Source: an uncultured Bacilli bacterium (GTDB taxonomy: Bacteria > Bacillota_I > Bacilli_A > RF39 > UBA660). From it: DNA of 64,000 bases. The stretch is taken from contig CASPVX010000001.1 in the NCBI GenBank assembly GCA_949425575.1, positions 10,789 to 74,788 of the forward strand, in the 5' to 3' direction. The notes below the pieces were generated by a model. The model saw nothing but the letters and a program-made list of their open reading frames with translations. It was not told the DNA's origin and ran no database searches. Made by a program: the position numbers and the translations under genes. Below are positions 27,725 to 54,454 of this stretch, in pieces. How positions within the stretch are numbered: the stretch's first letter is position 1; the number at the start of each line of letters is the position of its first letter.

Positions 27725-27752
27725 AAACTAGTAGTTTAATCTACTAGTTTTA
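27725..27752 (-). terminator. intrinsic terminator at the virD4-like stop
   Basis: A perfect palindrome AAACTAGTAG-TTTAAT-CTACTAGTTT overlaps the stop codon and is followed by U-rich sequence on the minus strand. Confidence 0.55.
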
Positions 27753-30140
27753 TAAATCCTCGTCATCTGCAAAGAAATCATCAAAAAATTGATCATCTGT
27801 TACATATCTTTCTTTTTCATCTACTTTTTCTGGTAATGATTTTTCTTTTACCTCAGTAGTTAATTCCTTTTTTGATTTTTCCATTTCTGGAAGCATATTA
27901 AATTTTGATGTAGTATTTATATTCTCTTCATATTTCGGAATATTTTCACCTGCAACAATGTTTAAATCTGGAACATTTATTTTAGGTGCTTCTTTTTTTA
28001 CTACTTTTTCTAATGTTTCTTTTGCTTTCAATTCTAATTCAGTAGGTTCATTTACTACTGGCGCTTTTACTATTTCCTCTGTAGGTGCTGGGATTTCTGC
28101 TTCTGGTTCTTCAACATTTGAACTAGAATTATTTCCCATTCCCATAGAACGACCTTTTACTTCAGTTTGTACGAGTTCTTCTTTTTTATTATTAGCTTCC
28201 TCTTTTAAAGCAGACATTTTACTGTCTATTTTCTTTAAAATTTCATCAATTTCACTAACACCACTTGGAACTTTAGGTTCTTTTTCTGCAGATATTGGTT
28301 TAGGTGCTAATGATGGAAGATCATCAATACTTCCAATTGCTCTTGCGCCTAGTCCAGAATATTTTGTTTGTGTTGGATTTTTGAATTTTTCTAAAATACT
28401 ATTTGCTCTTTCCGCTTTTTTAGCTTCTACAAATCCTTTTAAATCAAACACTTTAACTTCTTGTCTTTCACGATGTGGATATCCAGCTTTCTTTCTTTCA
28501 TATCCCCAATCAATCTGATAATCATATTTTAATTTAACTTTTAAAGGATATTCTCTTGTTCTTAAAACAATTATTTCTCCTTTTCCCATTCTTTGTAAAT
28601 CACTAACTGTGATTAATGGTCTATTTTCTTCTTTTTCTTTACCATCTTTACCGCTTTTAACTTTAATTTCGCCACACATTTTACTAATTTCTTCTAGCGC
28701 AGCCATCTCACTACTAATTAAATAAATTATGTTATTACAGTTACCTTTAATAGTATCTCCTTTTTCTTTGCCATAAACATCATTTAATTGAGCAAAGTTT
28801 TGGATTATAAAGTTAAAACGCATATTTCTACTACGTGCTGCTGAAACCATTGTTTCAACATCTTTTAATGGAGGCATATTAGCAAACTCATCTAGAATAA
28901 AGTTTGTTCTATATTGTAATCTTCCCCCATTTTCTTGTGCTACATCTACTAATGTTTCATAACATTGTTTTAAGAAAATTGTTACAAGTGGATGATATGT
29001 TTTCTTTTCGTCTTGAATAATAATAAATACTGCAGTTTTCTTCCTTCCGATATCTTTCATATCGAAATCACTATGTGAAAGCATTTCTGAAATATTTTCA
29101 CGTGAAGCAAATAATCTTAATTTTTGTTTAAAAACAGCTAGAATACCACCTTTTGTTTCATTAGGGGCAATTAAAGTAGATGATGCACTTACATATGCTG
29201 GAGATGTTGGAGGTTTTGTTTCAAAGTATTTTTTAATATATGTTGAAGGACCAATTCTCTCTTCACCAACAGTAGCTAGTAAATTTATACTATTTAAATT
29301 TATTTCTTCTTCTTTTGCATCTTCAAATAAAGCTAAAGTTAATCCTGAAAAATAATCAGCTGATGTTTTTTCCCAGAAAGGGTCTTGCTTTTGTGCATTT
29401 TGATCATACAAAATATTGATTGCTAAGTCGTCAATTAACTCATTTGCTTTATCTCCATTATGATTTTTATAATACTCATATGGTAAATATACTGGATTCC
29501 ATCCACTTCCTTCTTGTGGATTACGGAAATTAAGTAAAACAACATTATAGCCTTTTTCTTTAAGCATTTCACTTGTTTTTTCATAAATTTCACCTTTAGG
29601 GTCAGTAATGATCATTGATTCATTATTTTTGGCTAGAGACTCAACTAATGGTAAAACGACAATTTGGGTTTTACCACTACCAGTAGAACCGATAATGATA
29701 CTATGACTTTCACCATCATCAACCCACATATATTTTCCATCATTAACAAGTGGAATTCCGCCAGCTTCTGCGGTTTTATCAGTTACTTTTACTTTTTTTA
29801 ATAATTCTTTATATTCCTTTTCAGATGCCCATCTAGAAAAACCTTTTTCTTTTTTAGGCTTAGAAAATAAAAGTCCAAAACCTTTATCACGATCAAAAAA
29901 TTTATCAGATACACTAATAATACATCCTACTAAAGCAGCGATATAAACAACCAAAGTTATTCCTATATAATCTTTAGTAAATGCTGGAAATGGATTAAAA
30001 CCATGGAATGGTTTATCTAAATCACTAGCTGCAAATTGAGCTAAATTAAGAACCGCTATTGCAACAAAATATAAAAGAACAACACAGAATATTCCAAAGA
30101 AAGCCCAATCTTTTGGTTCTGCCTGAAACTTCAATTTCAT
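27750..30140 (-). CDS. type IV secretion coupling protein, VirD4/TraG (T4CP) family ATPase
   Basis: 796 aa with two N-terminal transmembrane segments. Walker A IIIGSTGSGKTQ, the ITDPKGE motif, Walker B FILDEFANMP and a C-terminal Glu/Lys-rich extension are present. It has its own upstream TG-extended -10 (TGTGGTATACT). Confidence 0.8.
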   Translation of the reverse strand: MKLKFQAEPKDWAFFGIFCVVLLYFVAIAVLNLAQFAASDLDKPFHGFNPFPAFTKDYIGITLVVYIAALVGCIISVSDKFFDRDKGFGLLFSKPKKEKGFSRWASEKEYKELLKKVKVTDKTAEAGGIPLVNDGKYMWVDDGESHSIIIGSTGSGKTQIVVLPLVESLAKNNESMIITDPKGEIYEKTSEMLKEKGYNVVLLNFRNPQEGSGWNPVYLPYEYYKNHNGDKANELIDDLAINILYDQNAQKQDPFWEKTSADYFSGLTLALFEDAKEEEINLNSINLLATVGEERIGPSTYIKKYFETKPPTSPAYVSASSTLIAPNETKGGILAVFKQKLRLFASRENISEMLSHSDFDMKDIGRKKTAVFIIIQDEKKTYHPLVTIFLKQCYETLVDVAQENGGRLQYRTNFILDEFANMPPLKDVETMVSAARSRNMRFNFIIQNFAQLNDVYGKEKGDTIKGNCNNIIYLISSEMAALEEISKMCGEIKVKSGKDGKEKEENRPLITVSDLQRMGKGEIIVLRTREYPLKVKLKYDYQIDWGYERKKAGYPHRERQEVKVFDLKGFVEAKKAERANSILEKFKNPTQTKYSGLGARAIGSIDDLPSLAPKPISAEKEPKVPSGVSEIDEILKKIDSKMSALKEEANNKKEELVQTEVKGRSMGMGNNSSSNVEEPEAEIPAPTEEIVKAPVVNEPTELELKAKETLEKVVKKEAPKINVPDLNIVAGENIPKYEENINTTSKFNMLPEMEKSKKELTTEVKEKSLPEKVDEKERYVTDDQFFDDFFADDEDL

Positions 30141-30244
30141 AAAAGCCCTCCCTTTAATAATTAATGGTTTTTAGTATACCACAAATTAGCTTTAATTTAA
30201 ATAAATTTCATTTAAACACATACATATTCATTATATCACAAAAA

Positions 30245-30268
30245 AACAATATTAGTTATAATATTGTT
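30245..30268 (-). terminator. intrinsic terminator ending the long tad/T4SS operon
   Basis: The palindrome AACAATATTA-GTT-ATAATATTGTT is followed by a T-run on the minus strand and lies 10 nt below the stop of the 244-aa lipoprotein gene. Confidence 0.55.
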
Positions 30269-30277
30269 TTTAAGTTA

Positions 30278-31012
30278 TTAAAGTTTATTTGAACGTTTAT
30301 GCTTAACAAAGATGAATAATGCGATAAGTCCTAAAACTAATACAATACTAATAATTATAATTACAATCTTAAGAATAGTTTTTCCAATTACATTATCATA
30401 ATTAGAAACTGTTTCTTCTTTACTAAATTGAAATTCAATTGGTTTATTCTCATAATTATCTTTTGTTATATACCATTTATAAACATTATCTTTTACTTCA
30501 TCAGCATTACTTTTAATTACCTTATGATTTGTTTTGATATTAACAGTAACAGTATCTAAAATAGGCACTTCCTTAAAATATTTAAATACTTCGCCTGTAG
30601 AAATAATTATATTTCCATCAATTGTTCCTATTAAAAATCTATTATATGAATCATTAACAATTTTAGAATTTTCGTATTCATCTTTAGTAAATGAATGCTT
30701 GAATTTAATGCCTGTTATATCTTCTGTTGTTAAATCCTCTTTTTCATAATATGTAACATAATCACTTTTAGTATTGTCTTCCGAAAATGCACCTTCCTCT
30801 ACAGAAGTTGGTGTTGGTTTATCTAAATTATAATCATTATAGTCTTCGATAGACATATCATAAGCAATTAGGTTTGTACTACTATCTTCTGATGCAGTTA
30901 CACTTAATTCTTCTTTGTATTCATCATTTACTATTTCTAGATTATATTCGGCATTACATCCGCATAAAACAAAAGGTAACATCATTACAAATAAATATTT
31001 AAATTTCTTCAT
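30278..31012 (-). CDS. lipoprotein with additional C-terminal TM anchor, unknown function
   Basis: The N-terminal lipobox VLCGCN and a C-terminal transmembrane segment ILKIVIIIISIVLVLGLIALFIF are followed by a basic tail. Confidence 0.45.
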   Translation of the reverse strand: MKKFKYLFVMMLPFVLCGCNAEYNLEIVNDEYKEELSVTASEDSSTNLIAYDMSIEDYNDYNLDKPTPTSVEEGAFSEDNTKSDYVTYYEKEDLTTEDITGIKFKHSFTKDEYENSKIVNDSYNRFLIGTIDGNIIISTGEVFKYFKEVPILDTVTVNIKTNHKVIKSNADEVKDNVYKWYITKDNYENKPIEFQFSKEETVSNYDNVIGKTILKIVIIIISIVLVLGLIALFIFVKHKRSNKL

Positions 31013-31020
31013 TTTTCCAC

Positions 31021-33690
31021 CTACCTTTTATTTTTAGGGTTATTATAATAATTTTCCATATCAAACAAGTAATAATCTCCAATACTAGAATATTTTCTCT
31101 TTTTAATTAACATACCTTCAGAAGTTTGTGCTGCTTCTGCTACATAATAACCATCATCATATGTCCCTATTATCATTACGGTATGATGACTATTAACTAA
31201 GAAATCTCCTGGCTGACCACCTTTGATTGCTCCCATTTTACCATGAGGCAGATTAGAAATATATGTTCCTGTAGTTCCTGTAGCAAATTTAAATCCAGCA
31301 TGGTAAATAGCCCAACCAATAAATCCACTACAGTCTAGCCCAAACGGATCTTTTACTGGTTCTTTTGTTAAATGTTCATTTGAGTGTCCTCCACCCCATG
31401 TATATTTAAGACGAACGCCTGTATCCATACTATAATCGCCAATTAAGGCAATTGAGGCAGCTACTACAGCAGCTCTTGTTCCATAACCTGCACTATTTAT
31501 TGCTTGTTTTATATGTTCATTAAACTGAGATATTGATTTAAAATTTTTACCTTTACTTTTTAATGTACAATCAACCATAGATTTTCCGCCACTAATACAA
31601 GTAATCGGCATTGAGGCATTTTGGGTTGCCTTATAATATTCTTCTAAATCATATTCACCAATTTCTCCACGGCAATCAGAGGTTACTTCATATCCATATG
31701 AATCTTTTACTATATCTTGATATTTTTTACCTGCTTTTGCTTGAGATTCCCAAGAGTTTTGTTCTTTAGAGGCAAAATTAGTATATTGTACGAATCCGTT
31801 TTTAGTAGCAACTTGTCCCTTTGTTGATGCAACTTCAGTTCTAATCGATGCGTCTTCTGGAATTGGCTGTCTTGTTAATTTACCATTATAACCACCAGCA
31901 TAAACAGTTGCAGCTCCACTAGTAGTTCCTTGCATACTTCCTGTCATAGATCCACAACCTAAATCAGGATGGCAGAACACCTGATCAGAGGTACTTGTTC
32001 TAATTCTAAGTACCCACTGACCGCCTTCAATACCTATTTGGCCAATACGTCCTCCCATGTGTTGTCCTCTGGTTAAAGCAAAACTTCTAGCTACCACTGC
32101 TTGTGTTTTCCATGTTTCAGCTGATGATCCACCAACTTCTGGATTTACAACACCTAATATATAAGTTTCAAAATCAACTAACCCTTCTCCAGGAATATCT
32201 TCATATTTATCTTTCCCTGGAGGATTACCTGATTCACTTAGTATTGTTCTAACTTGGATATCAGAAATTTCTTCATCTATACCAGATACTTTGTAATAAC
32301 ATACTGCACCTTGTGTATTTTTTGAATTTGTAGACCCTTCTTTTTCCTCAGCCTCACGATAATACTCAGCAAGTTTTATAATATCATCCGCAATTTCATT
32401 TTTACGTTTTTCTTTTATATCATCATCTTGAATTTTATATACATCTGGAATCATGCCTTCAATAAAGCCATATTCACATATACGATATACATTATTTCTG
32501 TCTCGCCAATAAAAGCCCATTGAGCCTACAGTTGAACTAAAAATAACATCTGAAATTGGTTTTGGGGTAAAATATTCAAACGGAATTCTACCTTGGTTAA
32601 TAGCATTATCAAATGCATCTTTTGACATACCAGCATTATCACTAAATCTTTGGAAAAAGCTTGTTACAGAATGACCTATTGTATTTCCTGTACAATATAA
32701 AGGTCTAAAAATATCGTTTTTATAGTTTGCTGTTAGCCATTTCTTATAGTTTTCATCACTGTAAGTATCACCACTATTAGCCATTCCATCAGCTACATAT
32801 TGTAATAAAGATATATTTACAGAAGAATACTGCCCAAAATCATTACCAGCTTCTCCATTTGTATATTGCCAAAAGTTCTCAATAAATCCACTTGATAATT
32901 GTCCAAGCCAATCATCTTGATCATAATTTTCTTGATATTCTACCTCTATAATATCTGATAATTCTGAAGTATATGTAACTGTCGCAATTAAAGCTGCCCT
33001 ATCTATTTTAGAACCATATTTTGATTCTAAAGCTTCTATCTTATCATGCCACTGCTTTTCTTTTATAGACCTAAGTTCTTCTGTGGTACATCCTTGACAA
33101 GCGGCTAATGTTGAATTTGCTGCCTTTTCGGTATCAAAGTATTCTGAAAACCAACTGGCAATCGCATATGGGATTAAAGCTACTATACAAAAAACCAAAA
33201 CAGGAATTGCAAAAGTTGATAAACAACCAACAGTTGCACAACCACCACAACCTGCAATTAAACAGCCTCTTTTCTTTACTTTCTTTTCTTCTTGCTCTTG
33301 CTGTTCTTCCTCTTCTTCTCTTACTGGGTTTATGCCTTTTAATTCTTCCTCTTCATATACTTCTTGTTGTTTTTCTTCAATCTTATTACTTGCATAATTC
33401 TTTACATACTTTTTTAAATTACTTTTTGCCCCATCAGGTATTTTATTATACACACTTTTTGCTCTGGAAGCGATATTTTTACCACCTTGTGCAGCTCTTC
33501 CCGCAGTTGCTCTAGCAGCGCCTGTTCCTGCACGTGCAGCAGTACCTGCGGCTACTCCACTAGTCCCAGCAGCAGCCCCTCCGGTGGCTGCAGTTCCTCC
33601 TACAGCGGCTGTTCCAGCTGCAGCGGTTCCTCCAGCAGCAGCTCCTCCTGCGGCACTTGTAGCGGCAGCAGCGGCAATTGGTGCTGGCAT
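31021..33690 (-). CDS. membrane-anchored cell-wall hydrolase: SpoIID/LytB-like domain + C-terminal NlpC/P60 (CHAP-like) domain, with Ala/Gly-rich N-terminal tail
   Basis: The first 75 residues are A/G/T low complexity, followed by a Cys-rich TM helix (GCLIAGCGGCATVGCLSTFAIPVLVFCIVAL). The central region has SpoIID-like TWKTQAVVARSFAL. The C-terminal region has the catalytic-Cys context GLDCSGFIGWAIYHAG and a downstream His (HHTVMIIG). Confidence 0.65.
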   Translation of the reverse strand: MPAPIAAAAATSAAGGAAAGGTAAAGTAAVGGTAATGGAAAGTSGVAAGTAARAGTGAARATAGRAAQGGKNIASRAKSVYNKIPDGAKSNLKKYVKNYASNKIEEKQQEVYEEEELKGINPVREEEEEQQEQEEKKVKKRGCLIAGCGGCATVGCLSTFAIPVLVFCIVALIPYAIASWFSEYFDTEKAANSTLAACQGCTTEELRSIKEKQWHDKIEALESKYGSKIDRAALIATVTYTSELSDIIEVEYQENYDQDDWLGQLSSGFIENFWQYTNGEAGNDFGQYSSVNISLLQYVADGMANSGDTYSDENYKKWLTANYKNDIFRPLYCTGNTIGHSVTSFFQRFSDNAGMSKDAFDNAINQGRIPFEYFTPKPISDVIFSSTVGSMGFYWRDRNNVYRICEYGFIEGMIPDVYKIQDDDIKEKRKNEIADDIIKLAEYYREAEEKEGSTNSKNTQGAVCYYKVSGIDEEISDIQVRTILSESGNPPGKDKYEDIPGEGLVDFETYILGVVNPEVGGSSAETWKTQAVVARSFALTRGQHMGGRIGQIGIEGGQWVLRIRTSTSDQVFCHPDLGCGSMTGSMQGTTSGAATVYAGGYNGKLTRQPIPEDASIRTEVASTKGQVATKNGFVQYTNFASKEQNSWESQAKAGKKYQDIVKDSYGYEVTSDCRGEIGEYDLEEYYKATQNASMPITCISGGKSMVDCTLKSKGKNFKSISQFNEHIKQAINSAGYGTRAAVVAASIALIGDYSMDTGVRLKYTWGGGHSNEHLTKEPVKDPFGLDCSGFIGWAIYHAGFKFATGTTGTYISNLPHGKMGAIKGGQPGDFLVNSHHTVMIIGTYDDGYYVAEAAQTSEGMLIKKRKYSSIGDYYLFDMENYYNNPKNKR

Positions 33691-33721: not shown

Positions 33722-34024
33722 TTATTTTTTATATTTTTCATTTTCCTGAAGTTCCCTGCATCCTACTTTCATAAATTCAATAAATTCATCCCATGACATT
33801 TTGTTTTTATATTCTTTTTCAAAATACATTCTAACATCACAAAAATCTGGACGACTCTCATAAATCGAACAAAGGTGTGTTTGTTCATTAAGATACTTAC
33901 ACACCCCATCTCCACGATCTAAATATTTTGCAGGTTCATACATTTCTAAATGACGACAACAAATTGTACATTTATCACAAGGAAATTTACGTTCTTCCAT
34001 TTTATAAACCTCCGCCATCTCCAA
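33722..34024 (-). CDS. YkgJ family CxxCxxCC zinc/iron-binding protein
   Basis: 100 aa with a PCDKCTICC cluster plus additional Cys/His residues. It overlaps the virB4-like stop by 23 nt. Confidence 0.5.
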   Translation of the reverse strand: MEMAEVYKMEERKFPCDKCTICCRHLEMYEPAKYLDRGDGVCKYLNEQTHLCSIYESRPDFCDVRMYFEKEYKNKMSWDEFIEFMKVGCRELQENEKYKK

Positions 34025-36331: not shown

Positions 36332-36629
36332 CTTTTACACACCAACCTTTCCATATATAGCACCTTCTTCTTGTATAAAATAAATAAATTTCTTTTATTA
36401 AAGTATGTGCATTATGATAATTTGGAAGCGGAAGCACCAGAAATGCGCCTATTACGCCTGGTGCTAAATCTATTATTGCTCCCCCTATAGAGTTGGGACT
36501 TATTATAAGTAGCATAAGCATTGATAAACAAATCCCACCTGCAAATAACCCTAAATCAAAAGGTGTGAACAGACTAAGTATTAAAGTCGATTTTTTTGAG
36601 TTCGCTGGTATCAAAAATTGATTTTTCAT
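36312..36629 (-). CDS. small membrane protein, VirB3/PrgI-like candidate
   Basis: 105 aa with two hydrophobic segments (LFAGGICLSMLMLLIISP, GVIGAFLVLPLP) and a basic C-terminus. Size and topology match Gram-positive PrgI/TcpE-type proteins. Confidence 0.4.
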   Translation of the reverse strand: MKNQFLIPANSKKSTLILSLFTPFDLGLFAGGICLSMLMLLIISPNSIGGAIIDLAPGVIGAFLVLPLPNYHNAHTLIKEIYLFYTRRRCYIWKGWCVKDEFGDK

Positions 36630-37173: not shown

Positions 37174-37183
37174 AATCTATCCT

Positions 37184-48890: not shown

Positions 48891-48915
48891 AATCTTTCTC
48901 TCCTCTTTCTTTCTT

Positions 48916-49323
48916 TTAATATGGCACTTCTAATATTGCATTTATTCTATTAGAAAGTGTAACATCTGTTGCTTCTCCACTAAAGCCATTGCTTCCTGTT
49001 GTTTCACTAGTTACTTTAACACTAACCTTTGGTGGGAATTCATTAATATCATAAAAATCTATTTTATAATGTCTTGAAGTTTCAGCACTTTCGGCATATC
49101 TTCTTGTAAAGTTTTCAACAAACTTTTCCCTATCTATTCTAACCACACCATAAGCAGCATAGCCAGCATAGTCAAAAGCATCCCACATTGCAGCCTCTGT
49201 AACTTCTTTTAATAATTGCGAATTGTGTTCATCGGTATTTGTAACATTTTGGAAAAATACTAATAATAGTAGTGATACTGATCCAAGTAATACTACAAAT
49301 ATACCCCACATTGCCTCTTTCAT
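48916..49323 (-). CDS. small N-terminally anchored protein, possible TadE/TadG-like pseudopilin
   Basis: 135 aa with hydrophobic segment WGIFVVLLGSVSLLLLVFF followed by a soluble domain. Confidence 0.35.
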   Translation of the reverse strand: MKEAMWGIFVVLLGSVSLLLLVFFQNVTNTDEHNSQLLKEVTEAAMWDAFDYAGYAAYGVVRIDREKFVENFTRRYAESAETSRHYKIDFYDINEFPPKVSVKVTSETTGSNGFSGEATDVTLSNRINAILEVPY

Positions 49324-49329
49324 AAATTA

Positions 49330-52119
49330 TCACTCTCCATTGCAAGAACCAAAGTTATTACAATTTTTAGTAGCAAAGCTTCCTACAAATCTACTTATAC
49401 ATTCTTGCCCTTTTATATTACAATTTAAATTGAAATCATCATATGATGTTTCGCGATTGTAATCTTTTATTGTTCTTATTGTTTGTCCATCTAATTCAAC
49501 TGTATACATTGGGGTTAAATCATAAACTGAATCACCTTTAACACCTCTATTATTTAAAATATAAGTATCAACCACTTCATTCTTTTCATTCCAATAACAA
49601 CTGAATTTATTATTTTTTTGATTATATTGACACCAGTTAAGCCCTGAATATCTATTACTTCCTGCCCTTCCTGGGAATGGATTATCTAAATCTATTGTTC
49701 TATATATAATATTTCCATTTCCTGTTGCAGGAACACAAACACCATTAATCTCTTTAATACATGTTGATGGTGCGTCTGGATCTGGATCTGGAATTTTAAA
49801 TCCTGGATCTGGTTCTACACAACCGGGACAATCAGGTACTGGTATGTCTGGTATATCTGGAATATCAGGTTCTGCTTCTATTTTACAAGCATAATCATTT
49901 CCACTTTCATTTCTACTTTTAACATAACAATTAGTACCAGTAGTGTTTCCTATTTTATTAACTGTCCTATTTTTAATACAAGTATCAACACCTGACTTTT
50001 TACATGTTATTCCATCCTTTGTTCCACTACATAAATATAATTTAGAACAAGATGAATTGATTAATTCACTTCTCTTATTTGCTTCAGTTATTCCTGTAAC
50101 AGCCGTCTTAGAAAGTTTCCCCTTAGATGTAACATATTTATATATATTAGAATTTTCACCACCTGATGTTTTTGAAGCACACGATGGTAAATAATTATTA
50201 TCTTTTATAAATGATTTAGATAAATGCATATCTTTATCCAGCATAAATTTAAGTGATATTGTTCCATCATTTTCAGTATAGACACTATTATTTGGTGAAA
50301 CTGGAATTGTCGCAATACCTAAATCAATATAGTCATTACCTGTTTTTGTATTAGTAAATATTCCACTATCTTTTAGAACATATCTAAATGTATTGCCTGG
50401 TAATTTGTACGAAATTGTTTGAACATCTTTAAATACATAGTTACTTTTCAACTGTTTATCTTCTGAAACGTATTTACTTGCACTTACGTTGGTAACTTGT
50501 CTAGTTGATGAGCCAAACTCTTTTTCTCCTTCAGCATCTAAACTTAAGTTCGTTAATGCTTTTTCGTACTCTTTATCTGCCGTTGTTTTATCATCAGAGT
50601 TTCCTCTATAAGTAAGTTGAACATTTGGATTTTGTTTGAATTTTAAATTATTTATATTATTTTTTAAACAACTTTGCTCGTTTGAAGCATTTTTCATACG
50701 ACATTCTCTAGTTTTAATAATTTTGATATCACCCCAGTTATGATTATATTTATTATCATTTAGTATTTTAATAACATCGTCATAACCTGCAACTTTTTCT
50801 CCATATGCATTAGTACCTATTACTTGATTATCCTTATTAATATCTCTAAAAGGCGAATGAACTGTAAAATATCTTCCTGTTTGAACTGTTGGTGTATTAT
50901 TTGCGTTAGGAAATACTACTTTAACTTCTTCTCTACAATAAATAGTTTTTTTTCCACAGCTCATTTTTTTATAATAATTTTTAACGTTATTTTTTTGACT
51001 CGATGTTGCTGCTTCACATGTATAATTCTTGTCGTCGCTTCTAAAAATATTATCCCATTCTGTTGTATCTTGAATTACGTAAGAAGCTCTATCCTTGTTT
51101 TTTTCATTGTCATCACAACCTACACAAGCAGCATCAACTGTATAATCACCTGCATCACATTGAGGCTCATCTCCAGATGGAGGCAGTGGCGAAACTAGTA
51201 TACCAACAAAATATCCGCTTTTATTGCTTTTTGTATGTTTTTTAAAATCATTTTTACTGCAGCCGTTTTGAGTGCCGACCTTAAAAGTATGATTTGTAAC
51301 TTGTAGTCTCCATAATCCCAAGTTGCAATTTGAAAACTTCTTTGTATCACAACTGTTTTTTGTAATTTTTACCGCATTTGCCATAGCAGATAACACGGAA
51401 CAGTGCATCTTACTTCCACTATAAGCTTGACTAGTTTTATAAAGTAGTTCACTTCCAGTACCAACAGTTACATCTTTTCCTGTTCCACCATAACTAGTAA
51501 GTGGTTCATAAATAATATAAGCTTTTTTCAAATTATTCTTATTTGCTGAACAAGCTGCTGCTTCTGAACTTTTAAATGCTTCGTCATAACTAAGTCCAAA
51601 GCAAGCTTTAAATAATTTTTTTGCTGCATTTGGATTTTTTTCTATATTTTTAAATGAAGCATTCGGTGTTTTTCCATTACCACTTATAAAATTACCGAAA
51701 CTAATTCCATAATCTGAAGCATTCCCCCAAGAATAATCTCCTTGCTTCCACCCTTTATATGTACCTATTGATAAATCTGTTTTTGAACATAGTGAAGTAT
51801 TACCATCTGGTTTTTTACACAAAGTGTGCTGAGCACTTGAAGTAACTCTCTCTACACCATTCTTGCTTGAACGACTTCCATACAAATCTATACTATTACT
51901 ATAATAAGATGTCCCATTGGCCATTATTTTTAATCTAGTACCATCCGCGTTTACAAAAGTGACACGAATACCAACGACACCACTATTCCAATTACCTTTT
52001 CCTGATTGTGCACTAGAACCACTTGATGTTCCTGTTCCTGATTGATCCCACCCATTGGCAATCAAAGGAAAAAGCGACGCTGTCATTATAGCTAATAAAC
52101 AAATTATTTTCTTTTTCAT
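49330..52119 (-). CDS. large secreted cysteine-rich protein (~45 Cys), possible pilus-associated adhesin/tip protein
   Basis: 929 aa with signal peptide MKKKIICLLAIMTASLFPLIANG and a Gly/Ser/Thr-rich N-terminal region. Cys are spaced throughout. A PDIPDIPDIPVPDCPGC linker is present. There is no C-terminal anchor or LPxTG. Confidence 0.5.
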   Translation of the reverse strand: MKKKIICLLAIMTASLFPLIANGWDQSGTGTSSGSSAQSGKGNWNSGVVGIRVTFVNADGTRLKIMANGTSYYSNSIDLYGSRSSKNGVERVTSSAQHTLCKKPDGNTSLCSKTDLSIGTYKGWKQGDYSWGNASDYGISFGNFISGNGKTPNASFKNIEKNPNAAKKLFKACFGLSYDEAFKSSEAAACSANKNNLKKAYIIYEPLTSYGGTGKDVTVGTGSELLYKTSQAYSGSKMHCSVLSAMANAVKITKNSCDTKKFSNCNLGLWRLQVTNHTFKVGTQNGCSKNDFKKHTKSNKSGYFVGILVSPLPPSGDEPQCDAGDYTVDAACVGCDDNEKNKDRASYVIQDTTEWDNIFRSDDKNYTCEAATSSQKNNVKNYYKKMSCGKKTIYCREEVKVVFPNANNTPTVQTGRYFTVHSPFRDINKDNQVIGTNAYGEKVAGYDDVIKILNDNKYNHNWGDIKIIKTRECRMKNASNEQSCLKNNINNLKFKQNPNVQLTYRGNSDDKTTADKEYEKALTNLSLDAEGEKEFGSSTRQVTNVSASKYVSEDKQLKSNYVFKDVQTISYKLPGNTFRYVLKDSGIFTNTKTGNDYIDLGIATIPVSPNNSVYTENDGTISLKFMLDKDMHLSKSFIKDNNYLPSCASKTSGGENSNIYKYVTSKGKLSKTAVTGITEANKRSELINSSCSKLYLCSGTKDGITCKKSGVDTCIKNRTVNKIGNTTGTNCYVKSRNESGNDYACKIEAEPDIPDIPDIPVPDCPGCVEPDPGFKIPDPDPDAPSTCIKEINGVCVPATGNGNIIYRTIDLDNPFPGRAGSNRYSGLNWCQYNQKNNKFSCYWNEKNEVVDTYILNNRGVKGDSVYDLTPMYTVELDGQTIRTIKDYNRETSYDDFNLNCNIKGQECISRFVGSFATKNCNNFGSCNGE

Positions 52120-52129
52120 TTTATCACTC

Positions 52130-52807
52130 CTATAATAAATCTTGTCCCTTTCTTCTTTTAACTATTTTAATCACAACAAACGCGATAATACCAATAACCA
52201 AAATAGTTCCTAAGCCAATTATTAAAAATTTATATTCATCAAAGAAATTGACTTTATTTTTTTTAGCTTTCGATATATCAGACTTATTACCATTCTTATA
52301 TTTTTCTAATGCTGCATTAAAATCGTCTACATTCAAATTAGAAGTATCTAACCAGGTTTTACAATATTTAAAATCAGGATATTCTTCACATTCATCAAAC
52401 GTTGAATATTCATTAAATTTAGGAAAAGTTATGTATTTACTAGTTAACGATTGACCTTTACAGTTAGGATCATTTGAATAAATTGTATATGTAATACTTT
52501 TCCCTGATTCAAATTTCGTCGGATCGGTTGTTTCTCCTGTTCCCACATGAGTATTGCCCGTTTCTGTGTTTTCAATATAAATGTCATTTGTTAGATTACT
52601 AATATGTGTGGAAAATAGAGCCGCCATGATTTCTGACTTTCCTCCATCATCTGGTACAGTTTTATCAAATTCATATGTATAGCTTAAATTAACATTGTTA
52701 GCGATTTTATTAAGTTCTGCAATTCTTTCACTACTACATTCTGCATGAGCCGATATAGGCAAAAAGCATAGGGCCGCAGCTATGCCTAAAAAGTATTTTG
52801 TCCTCAC
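52130..52807 (-). CDS. exported protein with signal peptide and C-terminal TM anchor
   Basis: 225 aa with signal LGIAAALCFLPISAHA and C-terminal transmembrane segment FLIIGLGTILVIGIIAFVVI followed by a KRRKG stop-transfer. Confidence 0.4.
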   Translation of the reverse strand: MRTKYFLGIAAALCFLPISAHAECSSERIAELNKIANNVNLSYTYEFDKTVPDDGGKSEIMAALFSTHISNLTNDIYIENTETGNTHVGTGETTDPTKFESGKSITYTIYSNDPNCKGQSLTSKYITFPKFNEYSTFDECEEYPDFKYCKTWLDTSNLNVDDFNAALEKYKNGNKSDISKAKKNKVNFFDEYKFLIIGLGTILVIGIIAFVVIKIVKRRKGQDLL

Positions 52808-52846
52808 TTTCCTATCCTCCTTATATCATTATAGCATAATTCATAA

Positions 52847-54454
52847 TTATTTTAAAATATATTTATACTCCTCATTTCTTACTTTAAAATCAAAATATAT
52901 ACTTGTTGCTTTTGCAACCTCTGGAACTACTTCTATATAATAAGTATCTTCTAATTTTGCTTTCTGTGGAGTAACCCTTCTTAACGTTGTTGGATGAGTA
53001 TATGTTTTACCATCAACAACATAAGTTAAAATACCGAATGAATTTATAAAATCAAATAAATCATTCATTTTACTAATATTTACAGAACTATCTTTTTTAA
53101 ACGTTCCCTCTATTTTCATAATTACTTTGTTATAATTTGAAGAAGCTGTTGGATTAACATATTCTACCGAATTAACACACTTTGAAGCAGTGTAACAATA
53201 ATTATAAGAAATTTTAAATTTTTCAGCTATTTGATAACTGTTAATTTTTAAAGTGGTTTGTCCTAAAATGCTATCTTTTAAATTTAATGTTTCCCCTATT
53301 TTTTGAGTTTTATTTTCTTTAATTTTATCTAAATTTATTGGTTTTAATTTAACATAAATACTTTTAGCCCCTACTTCACCTCTTACAAAACTAACCGTAT
53401 CATTAAACTTAAGTTGCATACTCTCTTTCATAAGACCTTTTGGAATTTCATAAACCAAAATATATGATTTATAATCGCCATCTAATTTTTGATCAAAATA
53501 TATATTTCCTAAATCCTTAACCGTATTAATATATTTTGTAGTAGGTCCAAAACTATAATTTTTAATTCTTAAATTAGCAAGTCCTGTATTTAATTTTTCC
53601 GTATTTTGATTATTAGCCTTAACTTCTATTCTTAAAACAACTAAGGCCTTATCATTATTAAGTTCATTTAATTTATAATCTTTATTTGTAACATAAGCAG
53701 ATTTAACAATCATACCTACACCGCTTGCTACAAAAGGTGTTCTTTCATTTACCTTCATAGTATAAATACCTACATTAAAATAAATAAGTAACCCTACAAA
53801 TAAAGCAATAATAATTGAAGCAACTGTTACAAAAAATTTATTTTCAACAATTGCATATTTTGCATGTCTAAGTTTTGATCTAAAACTTCTTTCCACAACA
53901 TTTCTATTAAATTCAACATCAACTTCAAATTCTTCATTATCTTCAGTTTTAATATCCAACTGTTCTAAATCTTCACCAAAATCAAATTTTTTAATATCAA
54001 ATCCAGTAGAACGAATAATCGCAGTAATAAATACACCAATTTGAAGTAACATTGAAATAGTTAAAAAGTCTCTAATTAATGTTACTGTTGTGATTTCTAA
54101 AATTTGTGAACTAACAGTTCTTAATGCAGAAAATGCGAAACCATAAATAATAATAGTTTCAGCATAAGCAACTAAGTTATAAATATATTGAATAAAAGGT
54201 TTCTTTTTAACTATCATTACTGATAATAAAATCACATTAAAAACAATTACTAAAAAAACCAAAAGAAAAGTATAAATGTTAATATAACTACTAATATCAA
54301 AATCATTAATTAATTGACTCGTTTTAGCATAATCAGAAAAAAATGAAACCATTTTTATAGTTTTTAGAATTAAAAACGCTGATAATATAGCTATTGCAAC
54401 ATGAAACCATCTAAAGTATTTGATAAAAAAGGCATATGGCTTTCTTAAAATCAT
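52847..54454 (-). CDS. polytopic membrane protein with large extracytoplasmic C-terminal domain; first gene of the tad/T4SS operon
   Basis: 535 aa with 4 N-terminal transmembrane segments, an acidic loop, a fifth transmembrane segment, then a beta-rich domain of about 300 aa. A divergent promoter region lies upstream at 54455-54637. Confidence 0.4.
   Translation of the reverse strand: MILRKPYAFFIKYFRWFHVAIAILSAFLILKTIKMVSFFSDYAKTSQLINDFDISSYINIYTFLLVFLVIVFNVILLSVMIVKKKPFIQYIYNLVAYAETIIIYGFAFSALRTVSSQILEITTVTLIRDFLTISMLLQIGVFITAIIRSTGFDIKKFDFGEDLEQLDIKTEDNEEFEVDVEFNRNVVERSFRSKLRHAKYAIVENKFFVTVASIIIALFVGLLIYFNVGIYTMKVNERTPFVASGVGMIVKSAYVTNKDYKLNELNNDKALVVLRIEVKANNQNTEKLNTGLANLRIKNYSFGPTTKYINTVKDLGNIYFDQKLDGDYKSYILVYEIPKGLMKESMQLKFNDTVSFVRGEVGAKSIYVKLKPINLDKIKENKTQKIGETLNLKDSILGQTTLKINSYQIAEKFKISYNYCYTASKCVNSVEYVNPTASSNYNKVIMKIEGTFKKDSSVNISKMNDLFDFINSFGILTYVVDGKTYTHPTTLRRVTPQKAKLEDTYYIEVVPEVAKATSIYFDFKVRNEEYKYILK

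What the first reader, a model, noticed from the sequence alone, without database searches (positions are those of the whole stretch)
27750..54454. Candidate novel hybrid apparatus: Tad/Flp (type IVc) pilus gene set physically fused with conjugation-type T4SS core genes in one ~27 kb co-directional cluster
All genes from 54454 down to 30278 are on the minus strand, with overlapping or near-abutting boundaries. A single intrinsic terminator at 30245-30268 closes the block. The gene order is as follows.
- A polytopic membrane protein, an anchored exoprotein and a 929-aa Cys-rich secreted protein.
- The Tad pilus set: a small pseudopilin-like protein, CpaB-like, CpaF/TadA ATPase, TadB-like, TadC-like, a 55-aa Flp-like pilin, two TadE/F-like pseudopilins and a TadZ/CpaE-like protein with degenerate Walker A.
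- A BspA-type LRR protein, two paralogous VirB2-like two-helix proteins and an exoprotein.
- The T4SS set: a VirB6-like polytopic protein, two unknown proteins plus a VirB3/PrgI-like protein, a VirB4 ATPase (IDPEGE hallmark), a YkgJ Cys-cluster protein, a SpoIID+NlpC/P60 hydrolase, a lipoprotein, and then a separately transcribed VirD4/TraG coupling ATPase.
Gram-positive conjugative T4SSs (MPF-FA/FATA types) are not known to assemble type IV pili. Gram-positive Tad loci are not known to carry VirB4/VirD4/VirB6. The nearest conceptual analogues are archaeal Ced/Ups DNA-exchange systems and Tad-dependent DNA uptake in some Actinobacteria. This cluster could be a pilus-assisted DNA transfer or uptake machine, or a contact-dependent secretion/adhesion machine. 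Its codon usage and GC content match the host genome, so it looks resident rather than recently acquired.
Basis: partly seen in the sequence, partly recalled or inferred. Interest (0 to 1): 0.92.

Follow-up and report, generated by a model that had tools for sequence, protein, structure and literature searches.

The report
Domesticated conjugation machine with pilus module
A 27-kb chromosomal gene cluster in an uncultured low-GC gut bacterium joins a conjugation-type secretion machine to a Tad-like pilus-building module; the same pairing exists on known Gram-positive conjugative plasmids, but here it has no mobility genes and is conserved in hundreds of related gut species, so it looks like a tamed, core cell-to-cell apparatus.

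Summary
Genes 54454→27750 form one co-directional minus-strand cluster.

**Supported parts**
- T4SS set: VirD4 of the CD1115 family (above the curated cut-off), a VirB4 split into two ORFs, a VirB6/TrbL-like protein, two VirB2-like T4SS_pilin paralogues, and a SpoIID+NlpC/P60 hydrolase.

**Unsupported labels:** Flp, TadE/F and TadZ could not be confirmed.

**Novelty claim is overstated.** Homologous Tad-like and T4SS genes sit together in tra regions of Gram-positive conjugative plasmids (pBMB67, pZB18, and pAW63/pXO2 as published). There the ATPase was simply called "VirB11".

**What is different here**
- The cluster is chromosomal, with no relaxase, integrase or att repeat in 64 kb.
- It is syntenic in at least ~550 species-representative genomes of RF39-type gut Bacilli, between the same housekeeping genes.
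- VirB4 (69-79% identity) is more conserved than RNase R (42-70%).

**Best reading:** a vertically inherited, co-opted conjugation-type machine with a Tad-like filament module. It parallels the relaxase-less T4SS of Patescibacteria. Substrate and role are inferred, not shown.

**Verdict:** new variant of a known kind; moderate interest.

The parts
52847..54454 (-). g01: 535-aa polytopic membrane protein with a large extracytoplasmic domain; first gene of the cluster
   Evidence: No Pfam or NCBIfam hit. Conserved at 31-44% identity at the same position in related contigs.
52130..52807 (-). g02: 225-aa exported protein with a C-terminal membrane anchor
   Evidence: Sequence shown. Conserved at 22-39% identity in relatives. 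No family hit.
49330..52119 (-). g03: 929-aa secreted Cys-rich protein (candidate adhesin or tip protein)
   Evidence: Signal peptide and many Cys residues. No Pfam hit. 25-44% identity in relatives.
48916..49323 (-). g04: DUF5411 protein with a pilin-like N-terminus (MKEAMWG + hydrophobic helix)
   Evidence: PF17424 at 176 bits. 46-68% identity in relatives.
47982..48890 (-). g05: CpaB/RcpC-like (SAF + RcpC) protein
   Evidence: PF16976 scores 29.9 bits against a cut-off of 28.8. TIGR03177 scores 37 bits, below its cut-off. Homologous to the SAF-domain protein of pBMB67 at 26% identity.
46690..47982 (-). g06: T2SSE-family hexameric ATPase (CpaF/VirB11-like; subfamily unresolved), with a low-complexity Pro/Val/Asn-rich tail
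   Evidence: PF00437 at 91.5 bits. Best NCBIfam hits are VirB11 (108 bits), TadA conjugal-transfer-associated (93) and TrbB (92), all below their cut-offs. In the PDB search CpaF scores 62 bits and VirB11 59 bits. 67-85% identity in relatives.
45770..46675 (-). g07: platform protein with one GspF/PilC (T2SSF) fold domain (TadB-like)
44973..45770 (-). g08: second polytopic platform-like protein (TadC-like by position only)
   Evidence: hhalign to the pBMB67 297-aa protein gives probability 96.5%. No Pfam or PDB sequence hit. No detectable similarity to g07.
44758..44925 (-). g09: 55-aa major pilin-like protein (leader MKEAAS, hydrophobic helix, small Cys-containing head)
   Evidence: The family N-terminus is conserved as MKEAAG/EANMTVITIVLI. 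No Flp_Fap or N_methyl hit.
44268..44729 (-). g10: 153-aa minor pilin-like protein
   Evidence: Family N-terminus is M[KR]E[SAG]IG followed by a hydrophobic helix. No significant TadE hit.
43744..44268 (-). g11: 174-aa minor pilin-like protein, paralogue of g10
42723..43754 (-). g12: 343-aa conserved cytoplasmic protein with a degenerate P-loop-like motif (GAGATS); the TadZ/CpaE-like label is unresolved
   Evidence: No Pfam or PDB hit. The single-sequence AlphaFold2 model is unusable, with pLDDT 36.7. hhalign to the pBMB67 AAA ATPase aligns only 46 columns, at probability 23%. 33-68% identity in relatives.
42113..42742 (-). g13: membrane-anchored BspA-type LRR protein; a lineage-specific insertion
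   Evidence: PF13306 at 92.6 bits. Absent from all related loci.
41637..42038 (-). g14: VirB2-like two-helix T4SS pilin
   Evidence: 12 of 18 family members hit PF18895 T4SS_pilin, best E-value 4e-5.
41188..41601 (-). g15: VirB2-like two-helix T4SS pilin, paralogue of g14
40087..41082 (-). g16: 331-aa exported protein whose C-terminus resembles the g14/g15 two-helix domain
   Evidence: Sequence inspected by eye. 20-47% identity in relatives.
37184..40063 (-). g17: VirB6/TrbL-like polytopic protein with a long C-terminal coiled-coil region
   Evidence: Weak hits to TrbL_4, pLS20_p028 and MMCAP2_0566. Many homologues hit PF19597.
36652..37173 (-). g18: 173-aa soluble protein of unknown function; lineage-specific
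   Evidence: No family hit. No homologue in related loci.
36312..36629 (-). g19: 105-aa two-TM protein in the VirB3/PrgI position
   Evidence: Conserved at 41-63% identity directly upstream of VirB4 in all 80 loci. It occupies the same position as the PrgI-family gene of pBMB67. No direct HMM hit.
35786..36331 (-). g20: VirB4 N-terminal domain encoded as a separate 181-aa ORF
   Evidence: NF045975 positions 98-276. Homologues hit PF26593 TraC-like. Homologous to the pBMB67 227-aa protein. The split is conserved in all loci.
34002..35786 (-). g21: VirB4 ATPase domain (594 aa; Walker A GTSGSGKST; IDPEGE)
   Evidence: P-loop_TraG and AAA_10 hits. NF045975 scores 345 bits and CD1110 scores 162 bits. 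More than 7000 homologues were found, and the top 120 are all 586-595 aa.
33722..34024 (-). g22: CxxCxxCC (YkgJ/YcgN-type) Cys-cluster protein; lineage-specific
   Evidence: PF03692 at 29.8 bits. Absent from the other lineages.
31021..33690 (-). g23: membrane-anchored cell-wall hydrolase (SpoIID + NlpC/P60) with an Ala/Gly-rich N-terminus; VirB1 analogue
   Evidence: Its position matches the bifunctional hydrolases of pZB18 and pAW63.
30278..31012 (-). g24: 244-aa lipoprotein with a C-terminal membrane anchor
   Evidence: Sequence shown. 23-42% identity in relatives. No family hit.
30230..30270 (-). A/T-rich terminator hairpin (30243-30270) followed by an extended -10 element (30230-30238) for VirD4
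   Evidence: Read directly from the sequence.
27750..30140 (-). g25: VirD4-type coupling protein, CD1115 family
   Evidence: PF02534 at 214 bits. NF045973 scores 324 bits against a cut-off of 250. A terminator lies at 27724-27751.

Best explanation
The cluster is a chromosomally fixed, vertically inherited derivative of a Gram-positive conjugation apparatus of the pAW63/pBMB67/pZB18 kind. That kind of apparatus already contains two modules.

**Module 1: monoderm T4SS.**
- VirD4 coupling protein.
- VirB4, split into two ORFs.
- VirB3-like and VirB6-like proteins.
- VirB2-like pilins.
- A two-domain wall hydrolase.

**Module 2: Tad-like type-IV-filament module.**
- T2SSE ATPase.
- One or two GspF-fold platform proteins.
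- CpaB-like protein.
- One small major pilin-like protein and several minor ones.

**Shown.**
- The gene content.
- The homology to plasmid tra genes.
- Chromosomal residence without relaxase, integrase or att sites.
- Conservation across an order-level group of gut Bacilli.

**Inferred mechanism.**
- The ATPase and platform assemble a short pilus or pseudopilus from the pilin-like proteins, through a CpaB-like collar and a wall opened by the hydrolase.
- This filament makes or stabilises contact with another cell.
- The large Cys-rich and LRR surface proteins act as adhesins.
- VirD4 then recruits a cytoplasmic substrate, and VirB4 with the VirB6 channel translocates it outward into the partner.

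No relaxase accompanies the system and it behaves as a core gene set. It has therefore most likely been co-opted for a host-beneficial contact-dependent transfer of protein, or of relaxase-independent DNA. This would parallel the relaxase-less T4SS of Patescibacteria.
For: **Gene identities:**

**Homology to plasmid tra genes.**
- pBMB67 carries homologues of g05, g06, g07, g08, g20, g21 and g25.
- pZB18 has the same elements in one co-directional cluster.
- The pAW63/pXO2/pBT9727 gene table shows the same order (PMC1196294).

**Residence and vertical descent.**
- 555 stretches in species-representative genomes encode this VirB4.
- One of them lies on a circular 1.54-Mb MAG chromosome, and another on Acholeplasma sp. 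CAG:878. That genus is placed in order RF39 (PMC8035907).
- Rhodanese, RmuC and RNase R lie on one side and ScpA/ScpB on the other in many loci.
- VirB4 is 69-79% identical across relatives, against 42-70% for RNase R.
- Pairwise distances of VirB4, VirD4, g12 and flanking RmuC are correlated: Spearman 0.45-0.71, with 0 of 500 permutations reaching the observed value.
- No plasmid in PLSDB has a VirB4 more than 31% identical.

**No mobility genes.**
- No relaxase, integrase or recombinase domain in the 64-kb window.
- No repeat of the tRNA-Leu 3' end.
- No MobP3 homologue in 2.5 Mb of related loci.

**Precedent for co-option:** the Patescibacteria T4SS (PMC12102498).
Against: - The function is not tested by anything here.
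- A relaxase could be encoded elsewhere in the genome or belong to an unrecognised family. Only one relaxase family was searched for in the related loci.
- The two modules are unlinked in some lineages. L153 has g01-g09 without the T4SS. L025, L035 and L001 have the T4SS without the Tad-like genes. Obligate coupling is therefore unproven.
- No prepilin peptidase is in the cluster.
- In this genome the residue before the presumed cleavage site is S, T or S rather than G.
- The Flp, TadE/F and TadZ assignments lack HMM support.
- The distance correlations are only moderate.
Confidence: 0.6

Rival explanations
1. Two independent systems lie side by side by chance: a Tad-like adhesion pilus and a separate T4SS. 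They would have unrelated functions and regulation.
For: - The halves are found apart in some lineages.
- VirD4 has its own promoter-like element and terminator.
- Tad-like pilus clusters without a T4SS exist in other uncultured gut Firmicutes such as TANB77 (PMC11680825).
Against: - The same pairing recurs on unrelated plasmid backbones in Bacillus and Enterococcus, inside tra regions.
- In this window the genes overlap or abut across the junction 42-44 kb, with no terminator found there.
- The pairing is kept in most loci that reach far enough.
- VirB4 and g12 distances correlate at 0.71.
Confidence: 0.15
2. It is a DNA-uptake (competence) machine. A Tad-like pilus would capture DNA and the T4SS core would import it, as in H. 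pylori ComB, archaeal Ced, or Tad-dependent transformation in Micrococcus.
For: - No relaxase is present.
- The lineage has small, auxotrophic genomes according to the literature (PMC12306168).
- Tad loci are needed for transformation in some Actinobacteria, as cited in PMC5696575.
Against: - A full-length, well-conserved VirD4 coupling protein of a conjugative family is retained (53-70% identity).
- The known import systems ComB and Ced lack a VirD4 (PMC12857230).
- The closest homologues are export-type tra regions.
Confidence: 0.12
3. It is an active or recently immobilised integrative conjugative element or integrated plasmid, whose relaxase and integrase lie outside the window.
For: - All core conjugation proteins are intact.
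- A tRNA-Leu gene lies 0.9 kb upstream and a tmRNA gene downstream; both are classic integration sites.
- An Rpn-family PD-(D/E)XK nuclease/putative transposase gene lies at 25139-26041.
Against: - The same insertion context is found in genomes diverged to 42-70% RNase R identity.
- There is no att repeat.
- No relaxase or integrase in 64 kb.
- Housekeeping genes (RNase R, SmpB, tmRNA) lie between the cluster and the tmRNA gene.
- VirB4 is under stronger constraint than the flanking genes.
- There is no close plasmid relative.
Confidence: 0.08
4. It is a decaying remnant of a conjugative element with no current function.
For: - VirB4 is in two ORFs.
- The Walker A-like motif of g12 is degenerate.
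Against: - The VirB4 split is conserved in all 80+ loci and is also found on functional-type plasmids.
- All ORFs are intact.
- The motor proteins are 60-85% identical across hundreds of species.
Confidence: 0.02

Closest known systems
tra regions of Bacillus cereus-group conjugative plasmids (pAW63 / pXO2 / pBT9727; pBMB67)
   Same: - Homologous CpaB/SAF protein, T2SSE ATPase and two membrane proteins directly after the ATPase.
- Small pilin-sized ORFs.
- PrgI/VirB3-position gene.
- VirB4 split into a ~220-aa ORF plus a ~630-aa ORF.
- VirB6/TrbL, VirD4 (CD1115 family) and an NlpC/P60 hydrolase.
   Different: - The plasmid systems come with a MobP3 relaxase, a replicon and transposons.
- Identities are low (21-31%).
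- On pBMB67 the two modules are about 9 kb apart.
- In the literature the ATPase is called VirB11, and the neighbouring genes are listed as hypothetical proteins.
Enterococcus faecium conjugative plasmid pZB18 transfer cluster
   Same: One co-directional cluster with this order: CpaF/VirB11-family ATPase, two membrane proteins, small ORFs, TrbC/VirB2 protein, VirD4 (CD1115), pLS20_p028-type VirB6, a small two-TM protein, VirB4, and a bifunctional hydrolase.
   Different: - It is plasmid-borne with a MOBP relaxase.
- VirD4 sits in the middle rather than at the end.
- Only the ATPase, VirB4 and VirD4 are detectably similar by BLAST.
- The platform-like proteins are not significantly similar by hhalign to single sequences.
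Chromosomal relaxase-less T4SS of Patescibacteria (CPR)
   Same: - Monoderm MPF-FATA-like T4SS.
- Chromosomal and clade-wide.
- Usually without a relaxase.
- Has PF18895 T4SS_pilin (VirB2-like) genes.
- Occurs in organisms with reduced genomes.
- Proposed to be co-opted for a non-conjugative role (PMC12102498; PMC12857230).
   Different: - It is a different phylum.
- Its type IV pili are encoded separately and are of the PilB/PilC type.
- Whether the VirB4 proteins are sister groups was not tested.
- Essentiality is shown for Saccharibacteria but not here.
Tad/Flp (type IVc) pilus systems, including Gram-positive ones (Bifidobacterium, Micrococcus, TANB77, C. acnes plasmid)
   Same: - CpaB/RcpC-like protein.
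- T2SSE ATPase about as close to CpaF as to VirB11.
- Separate platform proteins with a single GspF-fold domain.
- Very small major pilin plus larger minor pilins.
- Evidence: PMC11680825.
   Different: - No Flp_Fap or TadE Pfam match.
- No G/XXXXEY motif.
- No prepilin peptidase in the cluster.
- TadZ/CpaE is unconfirmed.
- The module is embedded in a T4SS operon.
IncI (R64, TP114) and PAPI-1 conjugation systems that use a type IV pilus
   Same: A type-IV-filament machine is encoded with a conjugative T4SS and assists mating-pair formation (PMC12857230; PMC9045228, listed).
   Different: - These are diderm hosts.
- The pili are type IVb (PilQ/PilS/PilV).
- The modules are not homologous beyond the superfamily level.
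- The elements are mobile.
Mycoplasma ICE T4SS (Mbov_0397-family VirB4)
   Same: It gives the best NCBIfam match for both VirB4 ORFs (345 and 52 bits). The VirB6-like protein weakly matches the MMCAP2_0566 family.
   Different: - The scores are below the curated cut-off of 590.
- In the NCBIfam model the Mycoplasma VirB4 is a single ~894-aa protein.
- Mycoplasma ICEs are mobile and, from memory, have no Tad-like module.

Membership tests
Monoderm conjugation-type T4SS (MPF-FATA/FA kind; CD1110/CD1115, pAW63-like) | VirB4-family ATPase | tested here: met
   P-loop_TraG, AAA_10 and DUF87 hits. NF045975 scores 345 bits and CD1110 scores 162 bits, both below their equivalog cut-offs. Walker A and IDPEGE are present.
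Monoderm conjugation-type T4SS (MPF-FATA/FA kind; CD1110/CD1115, pAW63-like) | VirD4-type coupling protein | tested here: met
   NF045973 (CD1115 family) scores 324 bits against a cut-off of 250. PF02534 scores 214 bits.
Monoderm conjugation-type T4SS (MPF-FATA/FA kind; CD1110/CD1115, pAW63-like) | VirB6/TrbL-like polytopic channel protein | tested here: inconclusive
   The window protein has only sub-threshold hits (TrbL_4 at 17.9 bits; pLS20_p028 at 24 bits). Many homologues carry PF19597.
Monoderm conjugation-type T4SS (MPF-FATA/FA kind; CD1110/CD1115, pAW63-like) | VirB3/PrgI-like small membrane protein next to VirB4 | tested here: inconclusive
   A conserved 105-aa two-TM ORF lies directly upstream of VirB4 in all loci. 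It has no HMM hit.
Monoderm conjugation-type T4SS (MPF-FATA/FA kind; CD1110/CD1115, pAW63-like) | Dedicated peptidoglycan hydrolase (VirB1 analogue) | tested here: met
   SpoIID scores 28 bits against a cut-off of 23. NlpC/P60 scores 18.9 bits, sub-threshold. Both domains are in one membrane-anchored 889-aa protein.
Monoderm conjugation-type T4SS (MPF-FATA/FA kind; CD1110/CD1115, pAW63-like) | VirB8-like (TcpC/PrgL, NTF2-fold) subunit | not tested
   g24, g02 and g16 are candidates. No structure was predicted for them.
Conjugative element (plasmid or ICE) | Relaxase and oriT | tested here: not met
   No relaxase domain in any ORF of the 64-kb window. No MobP3 homologue in 165 related loci. The rest of the genome could not be searched.
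Conjugative element (plasmid or ICE) | Integrase or recombinase, flanking att repeats, and variable presence among relatives | tested here: not met
   No integrase was found. No repeat of the tRNA-Leu 3' end was found. The chromosomal context is the same across divergent relatives.
Tad/Flp (type IVc) pilus system | TadA/CpaF-subfamily ATPase | tested here: inconclusive
   T2SSE family membership is met. The subfamily is ambiguous: VirB11 108 bits, TadA-like 93 bits, and in the PDB search CpaF 62 bits against VirB11 59 bits.
Tad/Flp (type IVc) pilus system | TadB and TadC platform proteins, each with one T2SSF domain | tested here: inconclusive
Tad/Flp (type IVc) pilus system | Flp-type pilin with G/XXXXEY processing motif | tested here: not met
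   No Flp_Fap hit. The family motif is MKEAAG/EANMTV, and the window protein has Ser in place of the Gly.
Tad/Flp (type IVc) pilus system | Dedicated prepilin peptidase (TadV/CpaA) | tested here: not met
   No Peptidase_A24-like ORF in the cluster or the window. Presence elsewhere in the genome is not testable with these tools.
Tad/Flp (type IVc) pilus system | CpaB/RcpC protein | tested here: met
   PF16976 scores 29.9 bits against a cut-off of 28.8. TIGR03177 scores 37 bits, below its cut-off of 71.
Tad/Flp (type IVc) pilus system | TadZ/CpaE ParA-like protein and TadE/TadF pseudopilins | tested here: inconclusive
   No HMM or PDB sequence hits for the g10, g11 or g12 families. The g12 model is unusable. 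There is only a 46-column match to a plasmid AAA ATPase.
Patescibacteria-type co-opted chromosomal T4SS | Chromosomal, clade-wide, relaxase-less, with T4SS_pilin genes | tested here: met
   This is a functional analogy only.
Patescibacteria-type co-opted chromosomal T4SS | VirB4 inside the Patescibacteria VirB4 clade | not tested
   No phylogeny with Patescibacteria sequences was made.

The most novel reading that the evidence does not exclude
The cluster could be a core, order-wide organelle of RF39-type gut Bacilli. It would be a relaxase-less conjugation-type T4SS that obligatorily works with its own Tad-like filament machine. These small-genome, auxotrophic bacteria would depend on it for contact with, and transfer to or from, partner cells. 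That role could be an epibiont- or parasite-like lifestyle as in Patescibacteria, or a dedicated chromosomal DNA-exchange system.

A corollary concerns Gram-positive plasmid tra regions. Their 'VirB11' would really be the motor of a Tad-like pilus module. That would contradict the textbook view that monoderm T4SSs have neither a VirB11-class ATPase nor pili.
Probability: 0.3. Interest if true: 0.8.

Novelty: new variant of a known kind. Interest (0 to 1): 0.58.

Why it matters
**Gap between the current reviews and the sequence data.**
[quoted passage not shown] The Patescibacteria paper says they lack VirB2-type pilin genes and rely on adhesins instead (PMC12102498).
- This locus and its plasmid relatives show a whole subclass of monoderm T4SSs that travel with extra parts. 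These are a T2SSE ATPase, GspF-fold platform proteins, a CpaB-like protein, pilin-like proteins and VirB2-like proteins.

**A natural experiment.**
- In RF39-type bacteria this apparatus has lost all signs of mobility and become one of the most conserved loci in the genome. RF39 is an abundant, uncultured human and animal gut lineage with reduced genomes.
- That points to a contact-dependent function important for their biology.
- It would be the second such case after Patescibacteria.

**Concrete use.** The locus gives gene targets for metatranscriptomics, imaging and cultivation strategies. It also offers a tractable route to test the role of the Tad-like module, through the plasmid homologues in Bacillus and Enterococcus.

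Tried and rejected
**Searches that gave nothing useful**
- A fused g07+g08+g12 query for the last homologue search returned one irrelevant hit, so the search was wasted.
- Profile searches of the g07, g08 and g12 families against PDB sequences found nothing.
- A Pfam scan of 54 diverse g08-g12 homologues gave only noise-level hits: Pilin_N 0.013, Tad 0.022.
- hhalign found no similarity between g07 and g08, so paralogy is not shown.
- hhalign of the g07 and g08 families against the two pZB18 membrane proteins was not significant. The g14/g15 family against the pZB18 TrbC/VirB2 protein was also not significant.
- tblastn of g07 against all PLSDB plasmids gave no match at E 1e-3.
  - The BLAST E-values therefore apply only to a tiny database.
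  - The g07/g08-plasmid homology rests on hhalign probabilities (90% and 96.5%) plus gene position.

**Structure prediction limits**
- The single-sequence g12 model has pLDDT 36.7 and was discarded.
- The afdb50 fold library was unavailable.

**Organism name**
- It could not be recovered.

**Hypotheses rejected**
- ICE integrated at tRNA-Leu or tmRNA: rejected for lack of repeats and because of the conserved context.
- Pseudogenised VirB4: rejected because the split is conserved and shared with plasmids.

**Literature**
- Searches for RF39 with T4SS, pili or competence found no description of this locus.

Full report
**1. The observation**

The window has about 28% G+C. From 54454 down to 27750 every substantial ORF is on the minus strand. 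Boundaries overlap by 1-20 nt or leave gaps of at most 105 nt. The exception is a 137-nt gap before the last gene.

That gap holds a 12-bp A/T-rich hairpin (30243-30270) running into a T-tract. An extended -10 (TGATATAAT, 30230-30238) and a strong Shine-Dalgarno sequence follow it. The generic terminator scan missed the hairpin because it requires G-C pairs. It did find a terminator after VirD4 at 27724-27751.

**2. Gene identities**

*T4SS half, supported by HMMs:*
- VirD4: PF02534 214 bits; NCBIfam CD1115 family 324 bits against a curated cut-off of 250.
- VirB4: P-loop_TraG and AAA_10; NF045975 345 bits, CD1110 family 162 bits; Walker A and IDPEGE present.
- A SpoIID + NlpC/P60 membrane-anchored hydrolase and a CxxCxxCC protein.
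- A BspA-type LRR protein.

*Split VirB4.* The 181-aa ORF upstream of VirB4 is not an unknown. It matches positions 98-276 of the Mycoplasma-ICE VirB4 model, and the 594-aa ORF matches positions 294-893. Its homologues carry PF26593 TraC-like. VirB4 is thus split into two translationally coupled ORFs. This split is present in all related loci.

*VirB6-like protein.* The 959-aa protein has only weak TrbL_4, pLS20_p028 and MMCAP2_0566 hits. Many of its 25-33% identical homologues hit PF19597.

*VirB2-like proteins.* The two small two-helix paralogues belong to a family in which 12 of 18 members hit PF18895 T4SS_pilin. The 331-aa exoprotein ends in a similar two-helix segment (by eye).

*Tad-like half, supported:*
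- DUF5411 at 176 bits.
- RcpC/CpaB at 29.9 bits, just above the cut-off.
- T2SSE ATPase at 91.5 bits.

*The ATPase subfamily is unresolved.* It is equidistant from VirB11 and TadA/CpaF. NCBIfam gives VirB11 108 bits and TadA conjugal-transfer-associated 93 bits. The PDB search gives CpaF 62 bits and VirB11 59 bits.

*Platform proteins.* What separates a type-IV-filament machine from a lone VirB11 is a platform protein.
- The 301-aa protein after the ATPase has no Pfam hit.
- An AlphaFold2 model built with distant homologues (pLDDT 83.4, pTM 0.71) gives as top PDB matches the cytoplasmic domains of EpsF and OutF. Foldseek probability is 0.97-0.99 and target-normalised TM 0.63-0.72.
- The second membrane protein (265 aa) could not be modelled. 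It shows no similarity to the first.

*Pilin-like proteins.*
- The 55-aa protein and the two 150-175-aa proteins have no Flp, TadE or N_methyl hits, even across 54 diverse homologues.
- Their families share a striking N-terminus: a six-residue leader followed by a hydrophobic helix. It reads MKEAAG in the small protein and M[KR]E[SAG]IG in the larger ones.
- In this genome the Gly is replaced by Ser, Thr and Ser.
- No prepilin peptidase is present in the cluster.

*TadZ-like label.* It is unresolved.

**3. Context and distribution**

*Flanking genes are housekeeping:*
- Upstream: tRNA-Leu, a 217-aa ORF, ScpB, ScpA, a GH3 enzyme and LigA.
- Downstream: rhodanese, RmuC, an Rpn-family nuclease, RNase R, SmpB and tmRNA.

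*No mobility signals.*
- No ORF in the 64 kb has a relaxase, integrase or recombinase domain.
- There is no second copy of the tRNA-Leu 3' end and no other att-like repeat.

*VirB4 homologues.*
- The 594-aa VirB4 has more than 7000 homologues in the protein collection. The best 120 are 586-595 aa long and 77-100% identical, from gut MAGs.
- Record titles include 'uncultured Tenericutes', 'Mollicutes', 'Bacilli bacterium' and 'Acholeplasma sp. CAG:878'. One is a circular 1.54-Mb MAG chromosome.
- GTDB genus CAG-878 is placed in order RF39 (PMC8035907).

*Synteny.* tblastn of all window proteins against these loci, and against 80 metagenome contigs anchored on the ATPase, shows the whole set g01-g12 and g14-g25 in the same order. 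Rhodanese, RmuC and RNase R lie on one side and ScpA/ScpB on the other in many of them.

*Identity to the window proteins across relatives:*

| Group | Protein | Identity |
|---|---|---|
| Motor and membrane parts | ATPase | 67-85% |
| | g07 | 63-82% |
| | g08 | 51-81% |
| | VirB4 | 69-79% |
| | VirD4 | 53-70% |
| Surface parts | VirB6-like | 23-46% |
| | hydrolase | 22-41% |
| | g03 | 25-44% |
| Housekeeping comparison | RNase R | 42-70% |

*Further points.*
- Pairwise distances of VirB4, VirD4, g12 and the flanking RmuC are positively correlated. Spearman values are 0.45-0.71, and 0 of 500 permutations reach the observed value.
- The LRR protein, the 173-aa protein and the CxxCxxCC protein occur only in the window's own lineage.
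- In a few lineages the two halves are apart. L153 has g01-g09 and then unrelated genes. L025, L035 and L001 have the T4SS half without Tad-like genes upstream.

**4. Comparison with what is known**

*Plasmid homologues.*
- No plasmid in PLSDB has a VirB4 more than 31% identical, but 2185 Firmicutes plasmids have a homologue.
- The ATPase has 'CpaF/VirB11 family' homologues on Bacillus, Enterococcus and Clostridium plasmids.

*E. faecium pZB18.* One co-directional cluster has this order: ATPase, two membrane proteins, small ORFs, a TrbC/VirB2 protein, VirD4 (CD1115), a pLS20_p028-type VirB6, a small membrane protein, VirB4 and a bifunctional hydrolase.

*B. thuringiensis pBMB67.*
- First module: a MobP3 relaxase, VirD4 (CD1115), TrbL, PrgI, a 227-aa protein and VirB4.
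- About 9 kb further on: a SAF-domain protein, an AAA ATPase, the T2SSE ATPase, two membrane proteins and small ORFs.
- Window proteins g05, g06, g20, g21 and g25 match these by BLAST.
- The g07 and g08 families match the two membrane proteins by hhalign, at probability 90% and 96.5%.

*Published precedents.*
- The published gene table of pAW63/pXO2/pBT9727 shows the same order. The ATPase is named VirB11 and its neighbours are listed as hypothetical (PMC1196294; review PMC9673590).
- A tad locus next to VirB4/TcpC genes on a C. acnes plasmid has been noted. Its authors explicitly asked whether the pili serve conjugation (PMC5696575).
- Tad-like pilus clusters without a T4SS occur in another uncultured gut order, TANB77 (PMC11680825).

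*Calibration of novelty.*
- The gene combination is not new.
- It is, however, under-recognised. A 2025 review states that Gram-positive T4SSs universally lack VirB11 homologues. It also calls Patescibacteria unique among monoderms in having potential conjugative pili (PMC12857230).
- The closest conceptual precedent for a chromosomal, clade-wide, relaxase-less monoderm T4SS with T4SS_pilin genes is the Patescibacteria system (PMC12102498).
- No paper in the library connects RF39 with a T4SS or this pilus module.

**5. How it most likely works**

*Shown:*
- Homology to plasmid transfer machinery.
- A type-IV-filament-type platform protein next to a T2SSE ATPase.
- VirB2-like pilins.
- A conjugative-family VirD4.
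- Chromosomal fixation.
- Strong purifying selection.

*Inferred mechanism:*
- The ATPase, platform and CpaB-like proteins assemble a short filament from the pilin-like proteins, through a wall opened by the hydrolase.
- This filament, with the large surface proteins, makes contact with another cell.
- VirD4 recruits a cytoplasmic substrate, which VirB4 and the VirB6 channel export.

*Arguments on direction and mobility:*
- Retention of VirD4 argues for export rather than import, because ComB and Ced lack it (PMC12857230).
- Absence of a relaxase, together with core-gene behaviour, argues for co-option rather than selfish transfer.

*What remains open:* whether the substrate is protein or DNA, and whether the target is a bacterium or a host cell. 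The occasional unlinking of the halves means that obligate coupling is not proven.

**6. Verdict**

- Novelty: a new variant of a known kind. It is a domesticated, order-wide chromosomal version of a plasmid-type T4SS-plus-Tad-like apparatus.
- Interest is moderate (0.58).
  - It touches a textbook generalisation about monoderm T4SSs.
  - It gives a handle on the biology of an abundant uncultured gut lineage.
  - But the function is untested and the parts have precedents.

Noticed in passing
window 34002-36331 (-): VirB4 is encoded as two translationally coupled ORFs of 181 aa and 594 aa that overlap by 1 nt. The split is conserved in all related loci. It also occurs on pBMB67 (227 + 630 aa) and pAW63 (223 + 645 aa), so it is an ancestral feature of this T4SS subclass and not a frameshift.
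   Followed up: yes
window 44758-44925, 44268-44729, 43744-44268, 48916-49323 (-); loci L002-L082: The pilin-like families share a six-residue leader ending in Gly before the hydrophobic helix: MKEAAG in the small protein and M[KR]E[SAG]IG in the larger ones. In this genome the Gly is replaced by Ser, Thr and Ser. No prepilin peptidase gene is nearby. Whether these proteins are cleaved at all is unexplained.
   Followed up: partly
window 7620-11430 (+) and 12500-15425 (-): A GerA/GerAC/spore-permease germinant-receptor operon and a dacB-spmA-spmB-rluB block are present. The organism therefore appears to be a spore-former, even though its T4SS relatives are small-genome RF39-type or 'Tenericutes' MAGs.
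   Followed up: no
window 42113-42742, 36652-37173, 33722-34024 (-): Three genes inside the operon have no counterpart in any related locus: the BspA-type LRR protein, a 173-aa soluble protein and a CxxCxxCC Cys-cluster protein. They are lineage-specific insertions into an otherwise conserved cluster.
   Followed up: partly
window 34002-36331 and 37184-40063 (-): The best NCBIfam matches for both VirB4 ORFs, and a weak match for the VirB6-like protein, are the Mycoplasma ICE families (Mbov_0397 and MMCAP2_0566). These score above the Firmicutes CD1110 and pLS20 families. That hints at an evolutionary link between this chromosomal system and Mollicutes ICE machinery.
   Followed up: no
window 25139-26041 (-): This is an Rpn-family PD-(D/E)XK recombination-promoting nuclease/putative transposase gene with a FliH-like coiled-coil tail. 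It lies between RmuC and RNase R. A counterpart is found in only a few related loci (L037, L051, L059, L066, L067).
   Followed up: no
window 26219-27650 (-): Rhodanese and RmuC genes directly follow VirD4 in most related genomes, and RmuC is 65-82% identical. Whether this is mere synteny or a functional link of a DNA-recombination protein to the T4SS is unknown.
   Followed up: no
window 46690-46850 (-): The T2SSE ATPase ends in a Pro/Val/Asn-rich low-complexity tail that contains a 27-nt direct repeat 48 nt apart (46764-46838). Many homologues align only to about residue 345-370, so the tail is variable.
   Followed up: no
window 33400-33690 (-): The hydrolase begins with about 70 residues of Ala/Gly/Thr low-complexity sequence. 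This accounts for the local G+C peak (0.357 in 32-34 kb) in an otherwise 25-31% G+C region.
   Followed up: no
loci L153, L139, L143; L025, L035, L001: In some lineages the two halves are unlinked. L153, L139 and L143 have g01-g09 followed by unrelated genes. L025, L035 and L001 have the T4SS half without Tad-like genes. L001 instead has N_methyl (Com/T4P-type) pilin genes upstream and a 1278-aa N_methyl protein downstream.
   Followed up: partly
window 12500-15425 and 55451-57379: From memory of B. subtilis gene order, scpA-scpB-ypuI-dacB-spmA-spmB-rluB is contiguous there. Here about 40 kb separates the 217-aa ORF after ScpB from DacB. That stretch holds the cluster plus RNase R, SmpB, tmRNA and transporters.
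   Followed up: no
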